A DNA stretch of 64,000 bases from Ginglymostoma cirratum (taxonomy: Eukaryota), in assembly GCA_024137785.1 (NCBI GenBank), contig JAHRHZ010000267.1, forward strand, positions 21,121,625-21,185,624, read 5' to 3'. The notes beneath the pieces are model-generated. The model saw only the letters and a list, made by a program, of their open reading frames with translations. It had not been told where the DNA came from and did no database searches. Made by a program: the position numbers and the translations under genes. Positions within the stretch are counted from its first letter, which is position 1. Every line of letters begins with the position of its first letter. Positions 5,861-53,560 of the stretch are shown in pieces.

Positions 5861-7663
5861 AAGGGCTGAAATAGTATTTGAATTGGTCCAAAACAAAGCT
5901 TGAGGAAGAGGTGATGCTGGTGGTTTGCTGATGCTGATGTATGTGCATAAGGAATTTAAAGAGAAGAATATTTGTGCAACCTGTAGGAACATTGTTTGGA
6001 AGAAGCAATTGCATGATGGTGGAATCAAGCCTTCGGTAATCTTCGGAAAACAGGTATATACGTGGGAGATTTGCTCAATATTGTTTCTCAATGGAGAAGG
6101 AGAGAATTGGAAAAGGCACATAAAAAAAGTGAGTGGGGTTGTAATGAGATGCAAATGGACAGAAAGAAGATAAATGTCACTCAATGCTGACACAACCTGA
6201 ATTCACCACTTATGGCTGAGAGGCAAAATCTGTAACATTCTTAATTTCGACATTCAGATTTTTCTCATTCTCACTGTATTTTCCCCACGATTCCCTATGC
6301 TGCGTTAGGGAGACGGAGAAACCACCATGTATCCAAGAATGGTTATATTTACACATCAGCAAGAAGGAATCTAATCCCTGGAATTATTCATGTCAAATGT
6401 CTTAACTGGCATTTGTCCATCTTGAATTCCCTCGAGGACCTGATTACACCTCATGCTGGCCTTTACTCTGTCTCAAAGAATACAGAAAATGCATGTCAGA
6501 TAGGTAAAAGTTCAGCCCATTCATCGTAACCAAAATATTCTGATGAGGGGATGATATCCAATTCTACTGATTATGACCAAGCTATGTGTTTTATGCAAGA
6601 CCTTTTACACCGTAAGAACCCAATACAATTACCTGACAATATACTTACAAAAATCAAAATGTCAAAGTGGGCTGCTCCTGAGCAACTTAACCATAGAAAA
6701 ATGTCGTTAGATTTTAGAAACGTCATGTATACTGCAATGCTCACTGATCCTGCAGTTTGTTGTTCAGTATTAAACAGTAATTATATTTAAAGAGCCTAAG
6801 GATACAATCTGGACTACGTGTGCAGCTGACAGCTGTGAAAACAGACTCTTAGAATCAATGCCCAAAATATTAATGAAGTTTAGAAATAGGTGACAGGGCT
6901 GCAAATAAGCAGAAGTAGCAACAATAATGAATGGATAATTGCCTATATATCCTCCTTCAACCAGGTCTGCTTGCAGAATTTACTAATGTTTGGAGGATGT
7001 ACTAATGCTTGTGTTATTGAAGACCTTCCGGGGATTGTATAATGATTCTAGTGTTGTGAAGAGGCCAGCAATTGTTTTGTGGATGTCTCTTCTCACATGT
7101 CATAAATTAAGCCTAATACTACTGTAAACAATCTTTGTCAGAGAAGTTTCTGGTAGACTTAAAGAAATTAATGCAATATTTAAACTAACTGTTGATGCAC
7201 CCAAAATTCCAAATAGGATTCTGCCCTCAAGGGTGCCTAGCTTATCAGTTGAACTGGCTACATTGGTAATAATGGATATTATTTTGATTTCTATTTGCGC
7301 GGAAGTTAATCTTTTACACAATACTTCATAGCACAGAATATTGAAAATTGCATGGACAAAGATATTCGAGGTTGGGAGGTTGTATTTAGGTTCTCGACAT
7401 CCTCCTGCTATTATTAAAAGGTATTGGTCTGAAATTTACCATTTTCATTTAAAGTCTGGGGGCAAGTAAGATTTTTCATGCCAACTCTGCCATACTGGAG
7501 GTGAATCGTTTTGCTTGACTGTCCACTTCTCACTTGATTTGTTATTGATAGGGTATATCAACCTTTTCAGTAATGCAGCACACTTCAGATGAGACAAAAA
7601 AAAAATTCAACAGCACACCTACTTTTCTCAGTTGAATTGTTTGCTCATAAACATCTTTACTTG

Positions 7664-7794
7664 AGAGATAAAAGGTACTGCAGATGCTGGAGAATCCGAG
7701 ATAACAAGCATGAGGCTGGATGAACACAGCAGGTCAAGCAGCATCATAGGAGCAGGAAAACTTGACGTTTCGGGCCTAAACCCTTCATCAGAAA
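7664..7794 (-). mobile_element. Young Penelope-like terminal-repeat (pLTR) insertion with 11-bp TSD
   Basis: Flanked by ATCTTTACTTG at 7653-7663 and 7795-7805; 130/131 identical to 47404-47534. Confidence 0.85.
7761..7794 (-). ncRNA. Minimal type I hammerhead ribozyme motif (intact core)
   Basis: Minus strand UUU-CUGAUGA-A-GGG-uuuagg-CCC-GAAA-CG-UC^AAG: all core nucleotides present, 3-bp stem II, loopless palindromic ACGU stem III as in PLE hammerheads. Confidence 0.8.
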
Positions 7795-8719
7795 ATCTTT
7801 ACTTGTATTTGCTAAGGTTACAGTCTTACTGGAGAGGCTTCCAATGTAATATATACAACAAAAAGCAGAACAACCAAATGCATTAATATTTCAACTGCAT
7901 TGGAAAAAACACATCATCTTTGACTGCGAGCACAGAATTTTCAAAGTCCGCTCAACTATTTCTAACTATGCGTGGCCCTAAATGTGTTCCACACACTGCA
8001 CTCGGTTCAGAGGTCTGAATTTCGCAGATAATATTTCAGATTTCTAACGAAATTTTTGACAGTATAATTTTTAAATAATTGAATGTATACGTAATTGAAA
8101 TTCAATGGATCAGAACAAAACGCAAAGTAGAGTAAATTGCAATTTACCGGGTTAGTAGGAAATCTGGGTCTGCCAGTGTGCACACAACTTTTCAAACAGC
8201 TTTAAAAGTGCATGAACATCACTGTTTGCTTTTTATGGTTCTGCTGTAAAATCTACCACAAGATTTCAATTTTGCCATTTGGCCACCTGCATTTAAAAAG
8301 ATCATATTGTAGAATTGAAAGACTGATATTTCACTTATAATTTGATGATTATTGTCATGTGTTTTGTGACTTGTAATTTTGGTTAGCAGGAATATTATTT
8401 AAGCTAAAACAAATATTTGTTTCGCATTGTTTCCATTACATTTGTACAAAATTTCACTGCACACTTTGACAGTTCTCACAGGATACCAGTATGCTACAGG
8501 AGACTGGTTGAAAAAATTGTGCAACCCAAGATGTAGGACACATTTCTCAGAGGATCTCATGGTAAGTGAGGCAGATCTACCCCACCATTGCCAGGACCTT
8601 CCAGTTTCCAAGTCTCTGGCACCATATCTAAATTCTAGTTGTACCCCAGCTCAGAGGCTACAAGCCAAGTACAACCTCTCACACCATACTGCTCGACCCT
8701 CAATCCTGGAAGAAAGACA

Positions 8720-14980: not shown

Positions 14981-15260
14981 GGGCGGCACAGTGGTTCAGT
15001 GGTTAGCACTGCTACCTCACAGCACCAGGGACCTGGGTTCAATTCCAGTCTCGGGTGACTGTCTGTGTGGATTTGCTCTGGTTTCCTCCCACGGTCCAAA
15101 GATGTGCAGGCTAGGTGGGTTGGCTGTACTAAATTGCCCATAGTGTTCAGCGATGTGTAGATTAGGTGGGTTACAGGGGGAAGGGTCTGAGTGGGATGCT
15201 CTGAGGGCCAGTGTGGACTTGTTGGCCCAAAGGGCCTGTTTCCACACTGTAGGGATTCTA
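14981..15260 (+). mobile_element. HE1-type tRNA-derived SINE (near full length)
   Basis: Head GGGCGGCACAGTGGTTCAGTGGTTAGCACTGCT (A box), GGGTTCAATTCC (B box), core CCCACGGTCCAAAGATGTGCAGG, HER1-like tail GGGCCTGTTTCCACACTGTAGGGATTCTA. Confidence 0.9.
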
Positions 15261-17924: not shown

Positions 17925-18500
17925 TGGAGTGTTGCTGAACAAAGAAACTTAGGGCTGCAGATACATAGCTTCTTGAAGGTGGAGTCACAGGTGGACAGGG
18001 TGGTGAAAAAGGTGTTTGGCTTGCTTGCCTTCATTGGTCAATACATTGAGTCTTGGATTTAGGACATCATGTTGTGGCTGTACAGGATATGGGTTAGGCC
18101 ACTTTTGGAATACTGCAATCAGTTCTGGTCTCCCTGCCGTAGTGAAGATGTTGCTAAACTTGAAAGGGTGCAGAAAGCATTTGCAAGGATGTTACCAGGG
18201 TTTGAGCTATAGGGAGAGGCTGAATAGGCTGCGGCTTTTTTCACTGGAGTGTCAGAGACTGAAGGGTGACCTTATATAGGCTCATAAAATCATGGGTGGC
18301 ATGAAAAGGGTGAACAGCCAAGGCCTTTTTTCCAGAGTAGGGGATCCAAAACTAGAGGGCATAGGTTTACAGGTAAGGGAAAAAGACCTTTTCTTAAAAA
18401 AAAAGGTCACACTTTTCATGCCAGAGGTGGTAATGGATACACATACAGCATTTAAAAAGGCAGCTGGACGGGTACATGAATTGGAAGGATGTAGAGGAGG
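17925..18500 (+). mobile_element. HER1/CR1 LINE 3' fragment
   Basis: Frameshifted ORF2 C-terminus (GLSYRERLNRLRLFSLECQRLKGDLI; TTGGAATACTGC...GTTCTGGTCTCCC). Confidence 0.9.
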
Positions 18501-23319: not shown

Positions 23320-23483
23320 AGAGATAGTAAAGGACTGCAGATGCTGGAAACTAGAGTCAATAAATGTGGAGCTGGAAAAGCACAGCAGGTCAGACAGCAT
23401 CTGAGGAGCAGGGAAGTCAATGTTTCAGGCTAAAACATTGACTTCCCTGCTCCTCAGATGCTGTCTGACATGCTGTGCTCTTC
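23320..23483. mobile_element. Penelope-like pLTR fragment with fold-back inversion (51-bp arms, 7-nt loop)
   Basis: 23375-23425 and 23433-23483 are reverse complements (49/51); homologous to the 7664-7794 family; the turn lies inside the hammerhead region. Confidence 0.85.
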
Positions 23484-24558
23484 AAGATATCAGACTATGT
23501 TGCAGCCAAAACACAAGAAAAATAAACAAATCACGACAAAAAAGAAAGCAACATTCTGCCAGTCAGTGCTGCAGTTGCAAGTAATGCTTAGTTATGAAAA
23601 AAAATGTAACGTTGGGTACAGTAGAATATTTAGAAGCTTCCATCTTATCTACTGAAGTGATGTCAAACTACTGGGACTGTTCATCTACTTCACTCTGGTT
23701 TGATATCATTGCATGCACTTCAAAAACAGTGTTATACTTTTCTCCAGCTCCCTGTAAAATGATAGAGTCAACAAACAGAATGATTGTAGAAAGGGCCATG
23801 CAAATATATTTTATTTGATGTGTTGTTTATTTATGGCAGTAAAGATAATTAGATCAGTAGCAGCAGTATTGAAACTACCCCAGCGTTATCCAGCAATTAT
23901 CCTATCCTACTTTACATGGCAAATAGTTGAAACTCCTGAGGAAGTGCAATAAATGTATGATATATCTGAATACATATGAATTTAGGAATAAAGAAATCCA
24001 ATGTGGATCATTGTATAGCCTTTGAGTCTATTGCATTCTGAGAATGTATTTGATATTTGCACTGGTAGTGGTATGGAGACAGCTGGAGTAAAGCAGACAG
24101 TAATTTCAATTTCAAAAAGAGAATCAATATTTCTAAGCCATGTAATAAAAGCAATCTTTCGGCATGATGGTACTCTTTCTTTAAAATGAAGCACCTACAA
24201 TATTGAACTTCAATATTAGAGTCAAAAATCAATGTTTTCTGACGATGAAGGACAGGAAAGAGAGATTGGAGGTAGACCTAGCAAATTGCAACACTTACAC
24301 AACTGCATCAAAAAAAGACCTACTGGTCAAGAAGAGCACAACATACAGTGTGGAACATGTTCATGAAAAACTCAAATGCACAAATAGAATATACATAAAA
24401 ATAACAGATCAGAAATAATTTCAAAGCATAGTAACTGTAAACCTTGCTTTCAGTACCCGCACACTATGTGGTACATACAGAGCGACATGTTGGAAATGTT
24501 ATGTTTGTCTATAATCCATAACAACGGCACATGTAATTTTGAGACTTTTGTGCGTGAA

Positions 24559-25539: not shown

Positions 25540-26050
25540 TGTATAATTTGTGATATTTTGATGACAGGAGGTAATGTACTCGCATGGATTAAAGATTAGC
25601 TAACAGATAGAAAACAGTAGGAATAAATGGATCATTCTCACGTTTGCAAACTGTGACTAGTGGGGTACCATAAGAATCAATACTGTAGCCCCAGCATTTT
25701 GTAGCAATGATTTGGATGTGGGAACCAAATGTAATATTTTTAAAATTTAAGGATGACACAGAAAGTGGATTTTGTTGTGAAGAAGATGTAAAGCTTTCTG
25801 ATGAAGGGTTTAGGCCTGAAACGTCAAGTTTTCCTGCTCCTATGATGCTGCTTGACCTGCTGTGTTCATCCAGCCCCATGCTTGTTATGTAGGAGGATCT
25901 GGATAGGTTTTGTGAACTGCCAAGAATGTAGCAGGTAGAATAAAATGTGAAAAGTTAAGAGGTTATTCACTTTGGTCAGAGGAACAGATGTGCAAAGTAT
26001 TACTTAAGCAGTAGAGAGGTTTTAAAATAAATGTCGGTGTCAAAAAGAAA
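25540..26050 (+). mobile_element. CR1 LINE RT fragment, interrupted by a pLTR insertion
   Basis: GCATGGATTAAAGATTAGCTAACAGATAGAAAACAG, GTGACTAGTGGGGTACCA, AAATTTAAGGATGACACA (decayed KFADDT). Confidence 0.8.
25795..25888 (+). mobile_element. Young Penelope-like pLTR fragment with hammerhead motif (25795-25828; C11.1 to U variant)
   Basis: TTTCTGATGAAGGGTTTAGGCCTGAAACGTCAAG...; one substitution relative to the matching part of the 47404 copy. Confidence 0.85.
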
Positions 26051-27184: not shown

Positions 27185-28085
27185 AGAAGTTACAGAGATG
27201 TACTGCTGTGGTTATACAAACGTCTGGTCAGAGCGCCAGGGACCCGGGTTCAATTCCAACCTCGGGCAACTGTCTGTGTGGAGTTTGCATATTCTCCCTG
27301 TGTCTGCGTGGGTTTCCTCCGGGTGCTCCGGTTTCCTCCCACAGTCCAAAGATGTGCAGGTTAAGTGGATTGGCCATGCTAAATTGCCCGTAGCATTCAG
27401 GGAGGTGTAGATTAGGTGGGTTATAGGGGGATGAGTTGGGTGGGATGCTCCGAGGTTAGGTGTGGACTTGTTGGGCCGAAGGGCCTGTTTCCATACTGTA
27501 GGGATTCTATTCTACTCTATTCTATGCTATTCTAGACCACATGTGGAATATTGAGAGCAGTTTTGGGGCCTGTATCAAGGGGAGGACATGCTTGCATTGG
27601 TAGAGGTCTAAAGTAGTTTTAAGAGAATGGGAATGAAGGTCTTGTCATGTAAGGAATGGTTGAGGACTCTAGGTCTGTACTTGGAATTTAGAAGGGGACG
27701 TGCCTATCTGATTGAAACATACAGGATGCTGAGAGGTTTGGATAGAGTAGATATGGAAAAGATTATTCCACAATAGGAGACTCAAGGACACAAAGGCACA
27801 TCCTCAGAGAAGTGTTGACTATTTAGAACTGCAATGAGGAGGAATTGATTCATCCAGAGGGTAGTTCATCTATGAAACTCATGGCAGTAGGCTTAGGGCT
27901 GTGGAGACCAAGTCATTGAGTACATATAAGACAGAGACAGACAAGTTCTTGATTAGTGAGGGGATTAAGGCTTAATGAAGAGCAAGCTCGAGAATAGGTT
28001 GAGAAACATGTCAGCCGTGATCGAATAGTGAAGCAGACTTGATGGGCCAAATGGTCTAATTCTGTTCCTATAACTTATTGTCTAC
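27185..28085 (+). mobile_element. CR1 LINE 3' fragment, interrupted by an HE1 SINE
   Basis: GTTATACAAACGTCTGGTC|...|AGACCACATGTGGAATATTG continues across the SINE; ends with TCAGCCGTGATCGAATAG...GATGGGCCAAATGGTCTAATTCTG. Confidence 0.85.
27229..27534 (+). mobile_element. HE1-type SINE, slightly 5'-truncated, young
   Basis: GCGCCAGGGACCCGGGTTCAATTCC...GGTTTCCTCCCACAGTCCAAAGATGTGCAGGTTA...GGGCCTGTTTCCATACTGTAGGGATTCTATTCTA; CpGs retained. Confidence 0.92.
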
Positions 28086-34199: not shown

Positions 34200-34500
34200 T
34201 AAGAGCCATTCAGTGCCCAATCAAGATCCAGCTTTGTGTGACTGGCTGTTTGGAGTTAAGTTCTCCACATGTCTGCGTAGGTTTCTGCCAGTGCTCCGGT
34301 TTCCTCCAGAGTCCAAAGATGCACAGGTTTGGTGGATTGGACACCACTGGACACCACTGGGCAATTCTGCATGGTCACTGTTGGGTTACAGGGATCAGGT
34401 TGGGGTGTGGGAACACAGTGAGGAGTGTTGGCATAGGTCTAGGTGAGATGCTGTTCAGAGGGTCAATGCAGACTTGATGGGCCAACTGGCCCCTTTCTTC
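34200..34500 (+). mobile_element. Older HE1/V-type SINE
   Basis: TTCTCCACATGTCTGCGTAGGTTTCTGCCAGTGCTCCGGTTTCCTCCAGAGTCCAAAGATG...GCAGACTTGATGGGCCAA. Confidence 0.75.
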
Positions 34501-41859: not shown

Positions 41860-42125
41860 TAATTACTAATTAATAAACAGCAAGCCAGGAATTAAAAAGC
41901 TCTGAATTTCATTCATTTTTTAATCATTTAACCAATAGCAAGATAACGAGAGAGTCTGGAGAATATTGAACATTGTAGCTTAATCACACAAGGTTTATGA
42001 TTACAAATGCTATTGCAAAGTGTTGACTTACAAATGCCCTCGAAATGAAGGAAAATTGGTTCAAAACAGATAAGGAGTACGTGACAAACTGTTGCCTGGG
42101 TCTTGTGGTTCGGATGTGGGGAATA
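41860..42125 (+). repeat. Donor copy of a local ~270-bp duplication
   Basis: Colinear and clearly similar (scattered substitutions, small indels) to 43500-43773. Confidence 0.9.
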
Positions 42126-42849: not shown

Positions 42850-43880
42850 TGCACTAACCTTAAAGTGGCAAGTAATAATAGCACCACACAAGTGCCAGAT
42901 GATGACCATCTCCAACAAGAAAATCTGCCAATCACTTTTTGATATTCAATTGCATTGTCTTGGCTGATCATCAACTTCCTGGGTGTTACCATTGATCAGA
43001 ATCTGAACTGGGCTAGCAATGTGTGTATGTACAGTGGCTACAAGAACAAGTCAGAGGCTAGAACTCCTGCAGTGAGTAACTCATCTGTCTATCAATTGCA
43101 AGGCTCAAGTCAAGAGTGCGATGGAATACACCTCATTTGCCAGAATGTATTGTAGTTTCAACAACACTTGTGACACTCAATATTATCCAAGGCTAAGCAG
43201 TCTGTTTGATCATAACCCCATTCATGATGATAAATATTCACTACTTCAGTAGTGGAGGGAGAGAGTGACAGCAGTGTGTAACATATACAAGATATGTAGC
43301 AATTCATTGAGGTTCCTTTGACAGAAGCTTCCAAACCCATGACCTCTACCACTTAGATACAAAGTCAGAAAACTCATGGGAGCACCAGCAACTGTAAATT
43401 CCTTCTAAGCTACATACAACTCTCACTTGGAACTATAACACTGTTTCTTCACCACAACGTAAAAGTCCTGGAAACCACTTCCTAATAATATTGAGTTGTT
43501 AATTACTAATTAACAAATAGCAAGCCAGGAATTAAAAAGCTCGGAATTTCATTCATTTTTTTAATCATTTGACCAATAGCAAGATAAAGGGAGAGTGTAG
43601 AGAATATTGACAATTGTTATGCTGTGGCTTAGTCACACAAGGGTTAGGATTATAAATGCTATTGCAAGGAGTTGACTTACAAACGCCCTTGAAATGAAGG
43701 AAATCGGTTCAATACAGATAAGGAGTATGTGACAAACTGTTGCCTGGGTCTTGTGGTTAGGCTGTGGGGAATATGGACTGCAGCAATTCAAAAAGATCAC
43801 TCACTATCATTTTCAAGGACAATTAGGAATGAAAAACAATATTGGATTTGCCAATGACAGCAGCATGCCTTGAAAAAATA
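42850..43880 (+). mobile_element. CR1-type LINE 3' part, interrupted by the duplicated segment
   Basis: ATCAACTTCCTGGGTGTTACCATTGATCAGAATCTGAACTGG, CAAGGCTCAAGTCAAGAGTGCGATGGAATAC; tail resumes at 43774 with TGGACTGCAGCAATTCAA. Confidence 0.8.
43500..43773 (+). repeat. Inserted copy of 41860-42125
   Basis: Same sequence order from TAATTACTAATTAA to TGTGGGGAATA, embedded in a LINE tail. Confidence 0.9.
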
Positions 43881-43898: not shown

Positions 43899-44135
43899 AA
43901 CAAAAACAAAGTTTCTGGAAAAGCTCAGCACGTCTGGCAGCATCTGTGATGGAAAACACAGAATTAACATTTCAGGCCCAGTGACCCTTCCTCAGAACGC
44001 TGAACAATTCTGAGGAAGGGTCACCAGACCCGAAATGTTAACTCTGGTTTTTCCTTCACAGATACTGCCAGCTGAGCTTTTCCAGCAACTTTGTTTTTGA
44101 TCCTGATTCACAGCACCTGCAGTTCTTTCGGTTTT
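43899..44135. mobile_element. Inverted pair of Penelope-like pLTR fragments with two hammerhead motifs and a perfect 12-bp TSD
   Basis: AATTGTAAATGT at 43887-43898 and 44136-44147; cores GTT-CTGAGGA-A-GGGTC-actg-GGCCT-GAAATGTT-AAT (43963-43998, -) and ATT-CTGAGGA-A-GGGTC-acca-GACCC-GAAATGTT-AAC (44007-44042, +). Confidence 0.85.
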
Positions 44136-47175: not shown

Positions 47176-47265
47176 AGGGTAGGTAGGGAAACTCCTTTCC
47201 TCTTGGTAGAGCACTCAATAGCCAGAGGACACAGTTTTAAAGTAAGCAGCAATTGCTTTAAGAAA

Positions 47266-47534
47266 CCTACACTCACCTTTACTGGTTCCATCCCCGCCTC
47301 TTCGACTTGTCTGCCTCCTCTCCACCTATCCTCTCCTCTATCCATTCTCTATCCGCCTCCCCCTCTCTCCCTATTTATTTCAGAACCCTCTTCCCCTCCC
47401 CCATTTCTGATGAAGGGTTTAGGCCCGAAACGTCAAGTTTTCCTGCTCCTATGATGCTGCTTGACCTGCTGTGTTCATCCAGCCCCATGCTTGTTATCTC
47501 GGATTCTCCAGCATCTGCAGTACCTTTTATCTCT
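47266..47534 (+). mobile_element. Young Penelope-like 3' UTR/pLTR fragment nested in CR1
   Basis: Pyrimidine-rich leader followed by 131 bp nearly identical to 7664-7794. Confidence 0.85.
47403..47438 (+). ncRNA. Minimal type I hammerhead ribozyme motif (intact core)
   Basis: AUUU-CUGAUGA-A-GGG-uuuagg-CCC-GAAA-CG-UC^AAGU; predicted cleavage after C47434; stem I AUUU/AAGU. Confidence 0.8.
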
Positions 47535-51373: not shown

Positions 51374-52715
51374 ATAGAGTCAGAGTCCGAGTCATAGAGT
51401 TGTACAGCACGGAAAACAGACCCTTTGGTTCAACTCGTCCATGCCAACCAAATATCCGAAATTAATCTAGACCCATTTGCCAGAATTTGGCCCATATACC
51501 TTCAAACTTTCCTATTCATATACCCATCCAGATGCCTTTTAAATGTTGTAATTGTACCAGTCTCCACCACTTCCTCTGGCAGCTTGTTGCATACACGGAC
51601 CACCCTCTGCATGAAAAAGTTGCCTTTTAGGTCCCTTTTTTCCTTTCTCACCTTAAACCTACGCCCTGTAGTTTTGGACTCCCTCACCCCAAGGAAAAGA
51701 CGTTGTCTATCTACCCTATCCATGTTCTTCATCATTTTATAAAGCTCTATAAGGTCATCCCTTAGTCTCCAGCACTCCAGGGAAAATAGCCCTAGCCTAT
51801 TCAGCTTCTTTCTATAGCTCAAACCCTCCAACCCTGGCAACATTCTTGTAAATTTTTGCTGAGCCCTTTCAAGTTTCACAGCATCCTTCTTACAGCAGGG
51901 AGAGCAGAATTGTACGCAGTATTCCAATAGTGGCCTACCTAATGTCCTGTATAGCCGCAACATAATCTCCCAACTCCTATCTTCAATGTACTGACCAATA
52001 ATAAGGACAAGTATACAAAATGCCTTCTTCACTATCCTGTCTACCCAAGACCCCCCTTTTCAAACAACTATGAACTTTCACTCCAAGGCCTCTTCATTCA
52101 GCAACACTCCCCAGGACCTTACCATTTACTGAAAAAGTCCTGCCCTGATTTGCCTTTGCAAAATGCAACATCTCATATTTATCTAAATTAAACTCCATCT
52201 GCCACTCAGCCCATCTGATCCAGATCCTATTGTACTCTGAGATAATCTTCTTCGTTGTCCACTACGTCTCCAGTTTTGGCATCACTCGCACAATTACTAA
52301 CCATACCTCCTATATTCATTACAGGAATGATGAAAAGCCATGGACCCTGCACGAATCCTCGTTGCACACCACTGGTCACAGGCGTCCAGTCTGAAAAGCA
52401 ACCCTCCATCACCACCACTACCTCTGTCTTCTACCTTTGAGCCAATTCTGTATCCAGCTGGCTGGTTCTCCCTGTATTCCATGAGATACCTTGTTGAACG
52501 CCTTACCGTAGTCCATATAGATCCTGTCTACCGCTCTGTCCTCATCAATTCTCTTTGTCACTTCAAAAAAATTCAATTAAGTTAGTGAGACACGATTCCC
52601 CATGCACAAAACCATGTTGACTATCCCTAATCAGTCTTGCCCTTCCAAATATGTAAATCCTGAGGGACCTCAGGATTCCCTCCAACAACTTGCCCAGCAC
52701 TGATGTCAGGCTCAT
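51374..52715 (-). mobile_element. HER1/CR1 LINE 3' ~1.3 kb; best-preserved ORF2 piece (51502-52032)
   Basis: IMLRLYRTLGRPLLEYCVQFCSP...GLEGLSYRKKLNRLGLFSLECWRLRDDLIELYKMM...TFKRHLDGYM; GCFSDWTPVTSGVQRG; (GACTCTAT)-like tail repeats. Confidence 0.95.
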
Positions 52716-53433: not shown

Positions 53434-53560
53434 TTTCTGAAGAAAGGTCCTGATCTGAAACATCAACTTTCCTGCTCCCCTGATGCTGCCTGGCCTGCTG
53501 CGCTCCTCCAGCTCTACACTGTTATCTCTGACTCCAGCATCTGCAGTTCTTACTATCTCT
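53434..53560 (+). mobile_element. Older Penelope-like pLTR fragment with decayed hammerhead (53434-53467)
   Basis: TTT-CTGAAGA-A-AGGTC-ct-GATCT-GAAACATC-AAC followed by TTTCCTGCTCC..GATGCTGCCTGGCCTGCTG...CTCCAGCATCTGCAG. Confidence 0.8.

What the first reader, a model, noticed from the sequence alone, without database searches (positions are those of the whole stretch)
7653..7805. Recently mobile 131-bp retro-insert that starts with an intact hammerhead ribozyme
Seen: a perfect 11-bp TSD (ATCTTTACTTG) flanks a 131-bp unit whose first 34 nt on the minus strand form a complete hammerhead core (UUU CUGAUGA A GGG uuuagg CCC GAAA CG UC^AAG). It differs by 1 nt from the copy at 47404-47534, and both core CpGs are intact. 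Known: Penelope-like elements carry minimal hammerheads with a loopless palindromic stem III that cleave as dimers. Inference: a recently active family is seeding potentially self-cleaving RNAs genome-wide, perhaps as a retrozyme-like short unit.
Basis: partly seen in the sequence, partly recalled or inferred. Interest (0 to 1): 0.7.

Follow-up and report, generated by a model that had tools for sequence, protein, structure and literature searches.

The report
Penelope retrotransposon leader-only stub
This 131-base insert is a stub of a very common Penelope-type jumping gene and carries that family's known miniature self-cutting-RNA motif; it likely arose when the copying enzyme ran off the capped front end of the element's RNA, which is a testable clue to how these elements copy themselves rather than a new mobile element.

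Summary
Observation confirmed: 11-bp TSD, 131-bp unit, minimal hammerhead, 1 nt from 47404-47534. The unit is not a free-standing element. It is the leader (hammerhead, 5' UTR, ~34-nt tail) of a young ~3.5-kb Neptune-type Penelope-like element; one copy keeps an intact 1,053-aa ORF. The 47404 copy continues 139 nt upstream into that element. The 28-nt hammerhead motif occurs 32,669 times exactly. In a random sample, 3' ends fall at ~97 or ~131 (the known tail) and 5' ends pile up at the hammerhead's front edge (8 of 21), not at its cut site (1 of 21). That edge matches an initiator 31 nt behind a TATA-like box, and junctions there often gain a G and extra T's. Likely mechanism: internal priming on an uncut, capped RNA and run-off at its start. 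Stubs share haplotypes with ORF-linked copies, so a separate retrozyme lineage is not supported. Cleavage, start site and polymorphism remain untested. The scan found this pattern before, in this genome and others.

The parts
7653..7663 (+). Target-site duplication, copy at the element's 3' (tail) side
7664..7794 (-). 131-bp leader-only copy of a Neptune-type Penelope-like element (hammerhead + 5' UTR + tail)
7761..7794 (-). Minimal type I hammerhead motif; predicted cut after GUC, between 7764 and 7763
   Evidence: sequence; features compared with PMC4209133; covariation; activity untested
7664..7697 (-). Optional ~34-nt 'tail' between the family's two 3' end-points (~97 and ~131)
   Evidence: PMC8557442, PMC11167929
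7795..7805 (+). Target-site duplication, copy at the element's 5' side; its 3 nt next to the unit (7795-7797) also fit the family's common G-A-TTTT 5' end
7559..8192 (.). Old (about 70-75% identity) dispersed repeat that the unit interrupts
47265..47534 (+). Second young copy: 5'-truncated 3' end of the element (139 nt of 3' UTR + the same 131 nt)
47372..47405 (+). Candidate core promoter kept in this longer copy: TATTTAT (47372-47378) 31 nt before the A (47403) of an initiator match CCCATT (47400-47405); absent from the 7664 stub
   Evidence: sequence; consensus from abstracts of PMC5287114 and PMC1779604; function untested
25795..25888 (+). Third young copy: starts at the same front edge, ends at the first end-point (no tail), one CpG decayed in stem II
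53434..53560 (+). Older-subfamily copy of the same 131-nt region (76% identity)

Best explanation
The insert is the first ~131 nt (hammerhead, 5' UTR and tail) of a young Neptune-type Penelope-like retrotransposon, and it was likely made when the element's reverse transcriptase primed at the internal tail site nearest the RNA's start and ran off the capped 5' end of an uncut transcript. Steps: (1) shown: the full element is [131-nt leader] - 38 nt - ATG - 1,053-aa RT / Zn-linker / GIY-YIG ORF - ~250-nt 3' UTR - [leader again]. (2) inferred: RNA polymerase II starts 1-2 nt before the hammerhead, at an initiator 31 nt behind a TATA-like box in the 3' UTR of the preceding copy. (3) from the anole element in vitro, inferred here: the endonuclease nicks AT-rich DNA and RT starts inside the RNA at one of two sites (~97 or ~131). 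(4) inferred: using the 5' copy of these sites gives a 95-135-nt cDNA that ends at the cap, often adding a G opposite the cap and extra T's; joining then leaves a stub with a TSD. (5) inferred: the stub lacks the upstream box and a partner hammerhead, so it is most likely a dead end and not an efficient self-cleaver.
For: Membership: 17 of the 30 best matches extend 35-1,014 nt upstream into an ORF with GIY-YIG and RVT_1 hits and a C-x4-C-x2-C linker. L255 shows leader-ORF-leader with 3,504-nt spacing and L256 an open 1,053-aa ORF without N. Tail: of 38 random-sample copies at 88% identity or more, 19 end at 84-104 and 19 at 130-131, the reference's end; their flanks show at most 14 more nt. 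5' ends: 8 of 21 ends within -150..+55 lie in -4..+3 (binomial p 2.5e-7), 1 of 21 at the cut site; at 80% identity 19 of 45 and 2 of 45 (12 and 13 copies dropped for N or stretch edge). Copies found only by their ORF start show the same edge: 10 of 30 begin at -4..+3, and L026 is a TSD-flanked copy that begins there and runs ~410 nt into the ORF side. T-run: 3 in 101 of 101 read-through copies, 4-9 in 17 of 60 copies that end there, all 17 still preceded by A. First foreign base G in 18 of 37 against 26% expected (p 0.003). In 17 junctions whose partner is known ORF sequence, 7 carry an added G and 6 extra T's. Genome-wide: G in 53 of the first 100 listed of 2,227 D-ATTTT ends (my count of the rows). 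An extra G marks the cap in full-length L1 insertions (PMC11702581, passage). Stubs and read-through copies share haplotypes (main type 31 and 54 copies, the window's T82 type 7 and 14) and divergence (1.2 vs 1.4 differences).
Against: No direct start-site data: in a poly(A) RNA-seq run of the matching species label no place showed a pile-up of molecule ends, depth was equal on both strands, and 88-98% of reads ran on into other sequence. The G excess is moderate for ends at the C: 785 G against 1,341 A/T genome-wide (37% vs 26% expected), with T commoner than G (77 T, 23 A in the first 100 rows). At this locus the G-A-T is also in the target, so this copy alone cannot show a cap G. TATTTAT is not the canonical TATA sequence, and its presence in 100 of 103 young copies reflects youth, not selection. 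D. virilis Penelope uses an internal, TATA-less promoter (PMC2377424), so a stub might still initiate. Some rows are two arms of one hairpin or duplicates across assembly gaps. The two-site priming was shown for a Poseidon, not a Neptune, element.
Confidence: 0.75

Rival explanations
1. Ordinary 5' truncation with a hot spot: RT primes at the 3' repeat, and the cDNA is joined (or recut by the element's ATT-preferring endonuclease) at ATTT, the first AT-rich patch before a long C-rich tract, by microhomology with AT-rich targets. Same element, no start site needed.
For: The anole enzyme prefers ATT (PMC11167929). At this locus, L010 and L241 the target itself supplies AT(T) at the joint. Other 5' ends are spread from -1,522 to +58.
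Against: In junctions with known ORF partners the added G/ATTTT is not in the partner. Extra T's keep the element's A in front (17 of 17). Copies that run on into the ORF start begin at the same edge.
Confidence: 0.14
2. One reading: the 131-nt unit is a non-autonomous, retrozyme- or SINE-like element that is transcribed from stubs and spreads by itself, using the Penelope enzyme.
For: Many copies share both ends. Penelope repeats are the proposed source of animal retrozymes (10.64898/2026.07.22.740005). A solo stub could keep an internal promoter (PMC2377424). Leader-ORF piece-leader derivatives with two hammerheads in direct orientation exist.
Against: No private variant among 39 solo starts. 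The unit here is a dispersed monomer, and its 5' end is not the cut site, as a ribozyme-processed monomer or circle would give. The double-hammerhead derivatives have different junction letters even at the same ORF position, as for independent events. No reads covered this locus's flanks in run X21.
Confidence: 0.07
3. Solo repeat left by recombination or deletion between the two direct repeats of a longer insertion.
For: Direct leader-ORF-leader copies exist; solo pLTRs were ascribed to recombination or deletion in a rotifer (PMC3846280, passage).
Against: It would still need a 5' repeat that starts at this edge, so it does not explain the pile-up, the added G or the T's. Stubs are as young as read-through copies and appear far more common than full-length copies: none of the 44 young hits listed reached the ORF's start.
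Confidence: 0.04

Closest known systems
Endonuclease-bearing Penelope-like elements, Neptune clade (PMC8557442, passages; PMC3846280, passages)
   Same: One ORF with RT, CX2-5CxxC linker and C-terminal GIY-YIG; pseudo-LTRs; heavy 5' truncation; partial tandems; head-to-head inverted copies; optional 30-40-bp tail; TSDs of about 8-16 bp; hammerhead in the pseudo-LTR.
   Different: A large class of copies holds only the leader and shares one 5' edge with added G/T; I did not see this class described in the passages read.
Poseidon of Anolis carolinensis, PAc (PMC11167929, main text read, parts 1-2 of 4)
   Same: Two RT start sites that bound the tail; AT-rich targets; uncut RNA as template; hammerhead near the RNA's front.
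   Different: In PAc the ORF starts inside the hammerhead and the start sites lie in the ORF; here the ATG lies 38 nt after the tail. PAc is Poseidon-type. The paper maps no transcription start.
Minimal hammerheads of metazoan PLEs (PMC4209133, parts 1-2 of 4)
   Same: Both boxes, extra base between 9 and 10.1, G10.1-C11.1, loopless palindromic stem III, mostly single dispersed motifs from truncated elements.
   Different: Shorter stems (II 4 bp, I 3 bp); far higher copy number (32,669 exact motifs against about 9,000 reported for Xenopus tropicalis); no cartilaginous fish named in the parts read.
Non-LTR retrozymes (PMC7229834, passages; 10.64898/2026.07.22.740005, parts 1-3 of 5)
   Same: Type I hammerhead, non-coding, related to PLE repeats.
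   Different: Retrozymes are tandem repeats with a hammerhead in each unit and yield circular RNA; this is a TSD-flanked monomer with a minimal hammerhead whose ends do not match the cut site.
Full-length L1 insertions with an extra 5' G (PMC11702581, passage)
   Same: Added G at the 5' junction read as a copy of the cap.
   Different: In L1 it marks full-length copies; here it marks ~0.1-kb copies, because priming is internal.

Membership tests
EN+ Penelope-like element | Single ORF with RT and C-terminal GIY-YIG endonuclease linked to the repeat | tested here: met
   GIY-YIG above Pfam's cut-off; RVT_1 E 8e-6 and 2e-4, below its cut-off, in two copies and not reported for the full ORF; YIDD motif present
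EN+ Penelope-like element | Pseudo-LTRs / partial tandems and inverted 5' copies | tested here: met
EN+ Penelope-like element | Optional 30-40-bp tail | tested here: met
   3' ends 19 at 84-104 and 19 at 130-131 of 38; inverted pairs with a tail on one arm only
Neptune clade | CX2-5CxxC Zn-finger-like linker before GIY-YIG | tested here: met
   CNRRKCYTC in L038; definition in PMC8557442; shared with Nematis
Neptune clade | Groups with Neptune in an RT phylogeny | not tested
   no reference PLE proteins were fetched
Minimal PLE hammerhead | CUGANGA and GAAA..UH boxes, extra base 9/10.1, G10.1-C11.1, palindromic loopless stem III | tested here: met
   among 183 box-intact motifs in fetched DNA, extra A in 179 and stem III CG or its CpG decay in 177, neither fixed by the pattern
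Minimal PLE hammerhead | Stem covariation between families | tested here: met
   Stem I UUU/AAG, GUU/AAC, GUC/GAC; 7 of 9 pairs with a two-sided change, 0 of 500 shuffles. Rows were preselected for stem II, are related, and come down to few events; the outer stem I pair is broken in 28 of 71
Minimal PLE hammerhead | Self-cleavage at GUC as dimer or with protein | not testable with these tools
   needs in vitro assay
Non-LTR retrozyme | Two or more consecutive tandem units, each with a hammerhead | tested here: not met
   monomer at this locus; no head-to-tail 131-nt array among the 30 best matches
Non-LTR retrozyme | Unit ends set by ribozyme cleavage | tested here: not met
   1 of 21 5' ends at the cut site
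Non-LTR retrozyme | Abundant monomeric linear/circular RNA | tested here: inconclusive
   poly(A) RNA-seq cannot show it; no end pile-ups, nearly all reads run into flanks
Independent non-autonomous (SINE-like) lineage | Private diagnostic mutations shared by short copies | tested here: not met
   39 solo starts share haplotypes with 87 read-through copies

The most novel reading that the evidence does not exclude
The stub is the stranded first product of a strong-stop-like cycle: Penelope RT first copies the RNA's leader from the tail site to the cap, then jumps to a downstream point of a transcript and carries on, which is how pseudo-LTRs, partial tandems and mirror-image copies are built; the same jump makes leader-ORF piece-leader derivatives with two hammerheads, a ready birthplace for animal retrozymes.
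Probability: 0.3. Interest if true: 0.65.

Novelty: new member of a known kind. Interest (0 to 1): 0.3.

Why it matters
The element class, its minimal hammerhead and its tail are published, so the insert itself is ordinary. What is useful is the junction record. It places the probable transcription start at the hammerhead's front edge, shows that inserted copies come from uncut RNA, and gives thousands of natural end-products for an open question: how Penelope elements build pseudo-LTRs and what their ribozyme is for. It also means tens of thousands of intact hammerhead motifs lie in this genome, many inside host transcripts, with unknown effect.

Tried and rejected
Rfam scan of the window at gathering scores: no match. 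A DNA search of G000 with the tail-ORF junction rang nothing (the tool skips very common words); the ORF side alone worked. Empty allele: four runs laid on 6900-8500 showed no joint that skips the insert, but none bridged the site, so polymorphism is open. The look-up of sequencing runs: no RNA holder listed on record; two raw RNA runs of the same species label were offered, X22 gave 7 reads. Second haplotype in the assembly: only one copy of the flank. Tail as an antisense lock on the ribozyme: predicted in the isolated 131-mer (P about 1.0) but 0.45 in a longer leader and absent with flanks; 84 of 2,000 shuffled tails pair as well, and none of 33 older copies stands out: rejected as a conserved switch. 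Whole-unit folding is not unusual (z -1.3). Intact CpGs as a sign of selection: rejected; 20 of 28 copies at 90% identity or more keep the core, 7 of 36 at 80-90%, 1 of 12 below. PDB search with the ORF: only two weak unrelated hits. One exact-pattern search found nothing and was not used. Host gene context was not worked out.

Full report
Observation. The window holds ATCTTTACTTG at 7653-7663 and 7795-7805 around a 131-bp unit. The duplication is far beyond chance and the interrupted old repeat is collinear across the site in a relative. On the minus strand the unit opens with a complete minimal hammerhead: CUGAUGA, an extra A, a 4-bp stem II, GAAA, the ACGU palindrome and a GUC triplet. It differs from 47404-47534 at one base. 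Rfam reports nothing. The window lies in a 4.36-Gb genome; that it is a cartilaginous fish is my recollection from the SINE-like repeats in the window and the wording of earlier scan notes, not a call result.

What the unit belongs to. Of the 30 best genomic matches fetched (of 40 scored), 17 continue 35-1,014 nt upstream in shared sequence, and so does the 47404 copy (139 nt). Walking upstream gives a GIY-YIG domain, a C-x4-C-x2-C linker and an RT domain. Walking to the ORF's start leads back to the same 131 nt, 38 nt before the ATG. Of four long copies fetched, L255 shows leader-ORF-leader at 3,504-nt spacing with a broken frame, L256 keeps an open 1,053-aa ORF, and two have N gaps. By the linker this is a Neptune-type Penelope-like element (PMC8557442, passages); no RT tree was built. 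Two copies identical to the window's unit over all 131 nt (L003, L005) are joined to the ORF end.

Abundance and age. The 28-nt hammerhead motif occurs 32,669 times exactly in the searchable genome; a 26-nt pattern that includes the upstream C-run occurs 20,859 times. In 120 random 10-kb stretches (47 all N; 705,101 readable bases) 36 copies were at least 90% and 17 at least 95% identical, which extrapolates roughly to 130,000-220,000 and 60,000-105,000 copies; the exact count suggests the lower figures are nearer. The core is intact in 20 of 28 young, 7 of 36 middle and 1 of 12 old copies, as expected from decay after insertion.

The two ends. 3' ends fall in two groups, 19 at 84-104 and 19 at 130-131 of 38, the published tail, which in the anole element lies between two internal RT start sites (PMC11167929). 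5' ends pile up at the hammerhead's front edge: 8 of 21 within -150..+55 lie in a 7-nt window, against 1 of 21 at the cut site (12 copies dropped for N or edge). Copies picked only by their ORF start show the same edge (10 of 30), and L026 is a TSD-flanked copy from that edge to ~410 nt past the tail. So the inserted template was uncut, in line with the anole result that unprocessed RNA is the main substrate.

Why that edge. In copies that keep the upstream sequence it reads TATTTAT, then 24 nt, then the A of CCCATT (window 47372-47405). That fits the human initiator BBCA+1BW (PMC5287114, abstract) with the box at -31, an optimal spacing (PMC1779604, abstract). Junctions at the edge look like a template end. 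The T-run is 3 long in 101 of 101 read-through copies but 4-9 in 17 of 60 ended copies, always with the A still in front, as slippage at a start site or at a template end would give (reiterative initiation: PMC8812562, search listing only, bacterial). The first foreign base is G in 18 of 37. In 17 junctions with known ORF partners, 7 have an added G and 6 extra T's. Genome-wide, 53 of the first 100 of 2,227 D-ATTTT ends have G, and 785 of 2,126 non-C bases before CATTT are G, a weaker excess, with T commoner. An added G is read as a cap copy in L1 (PMC11702581, passage). The window's own junction reads G-A-TTTT but those letters are also in the target, so it is uninformative alone.

Against and open. 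RNA-seq of the matching species label carries the family heavily (13,104 reads at 97% identity on the unit in a quarter of run X21) but on both strands equally, with 98% running into other flanks, no end pile-ups and no reads on this locus's flanks. It neither shows the start site nor cleavage. No empty allele could be tested. Microhomology at ATTT remains a partial rival.

Is it a retrozyme? Retrozymes are tandem units with a hammerhead in each (PMC7229834, passages; 10.64898/2026.07.22.740005, parts 1-3 of 5). This is a monomer, its ends are not the cut site, and 39 solo starts share haplotypes and divergence with 87 read-through copies. It fails membership. It does work like the PLE-derived 'monomers' those papers count. 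Direct leader-ORF piece-leader derivatives with two hammerheads do exist, each with its own junction letters.

The ribozyme. All min-HHR features of PMC4209133 are met. Stem I covaries between hammerhead families of the genome (on 70 of 82 motif classes plus the window copy; 12 near-duplicate or outlying rows left out; rows preselected for stem II and related to each other). The outer stem I pair is broken in 28 of 71 rows. Folding predicts no stem I in the monomer. Published motifs of this class cut poorly even as dimers (PMC4209133) or only with protein (PMC11167929). A solo stub is therefore probably silent; this is inference.

Novelty. The element class, hammerhead and tail are known. Four searches of the held library showed no paper on leader-only Penelope copies ending at a capped start; subscription papers, repeat databases and supplements (for example Fig. 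S2 of PMC11167929 and the tables of the 2026 preprint) were not seen and may bear on this. Earlier notes of this scan reached the same reading in this genome and, with the extra G, in others; they are not independent support. Verdict: a new member of a known kind, interest 0.3; the strong-stop-and-jump reading (probability 0.3) would deserve 0.65.

Noticed in passing
L219, L226, L238, L239, L240, L241, L243, L244, L246 (G000): Derivatives built as leader + 260-1,600 nt of ORF start + leader, with two hammerheads in direct orientation; recurrent ORF break points (~228, ~365, ~493, ~1,439) but different junction letters. Candidate dimer-competent, circle-forming units.
   Followed up: partly
window 43927-44078: Head-to-head pair of a second hammerhead family (GUU/AAC stem I, GUU triplet, longer stem II loop).
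   Followed up: partly
window 23320-23486: Older fold-back copy of the same lineage, inverted inside the hammerhead, tail on one arm.
   Followed up: no
L192:594-640 (-), L192:1061-1107 (+), L092:3044-3090 (+): A third hammerhead-like family (GCA/UGC stem I, extra U, long GUUAC...GUAAC stem II) unrelated in sequence to this one.
   Followed up: no
L008, L026, L030, L114, L119, L219: Runs of exactly 400 N sit between duplicated halves of hairpin insertions; they look like assembly gaps at palindromes and can double-count copies.
   Followed up: partly
L030 and rows: Both arms of some mirror-image insertions carry the same extra T, suggesting one RNA or a snap-back served both arms.
   Followed up: no
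window 7790-7746 (-): The ATG inside the hammerhead core opens a 14-codon frame ahead of the main ORF; in the anole element the main ORF starts at the hammerhead.
   Followed up: no
window 47364-47383 (+): The pyrimidine tract ending in TTTCAG, 20 nt before the hammerhead, also resembles a splice acceptor; no pile-up of ends was seen there.
   Followed up: partly
window 15017-15260, 27228-27509, 34306-34498: tRNA-type SINE copies (recalled as HE1/V-SINE-like; name from memory).
   Followed up: no
window 41860-42125 and 43500-43773: A ~270-bp direct duplication at 1.64-kb spacing, about 90% identical.
   Followed up: no
window 51502-52059 (-), 17926-18329: Decayed LINE (CR1-like by recalled C-terminal motifs) fragments.
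   Followed up: no
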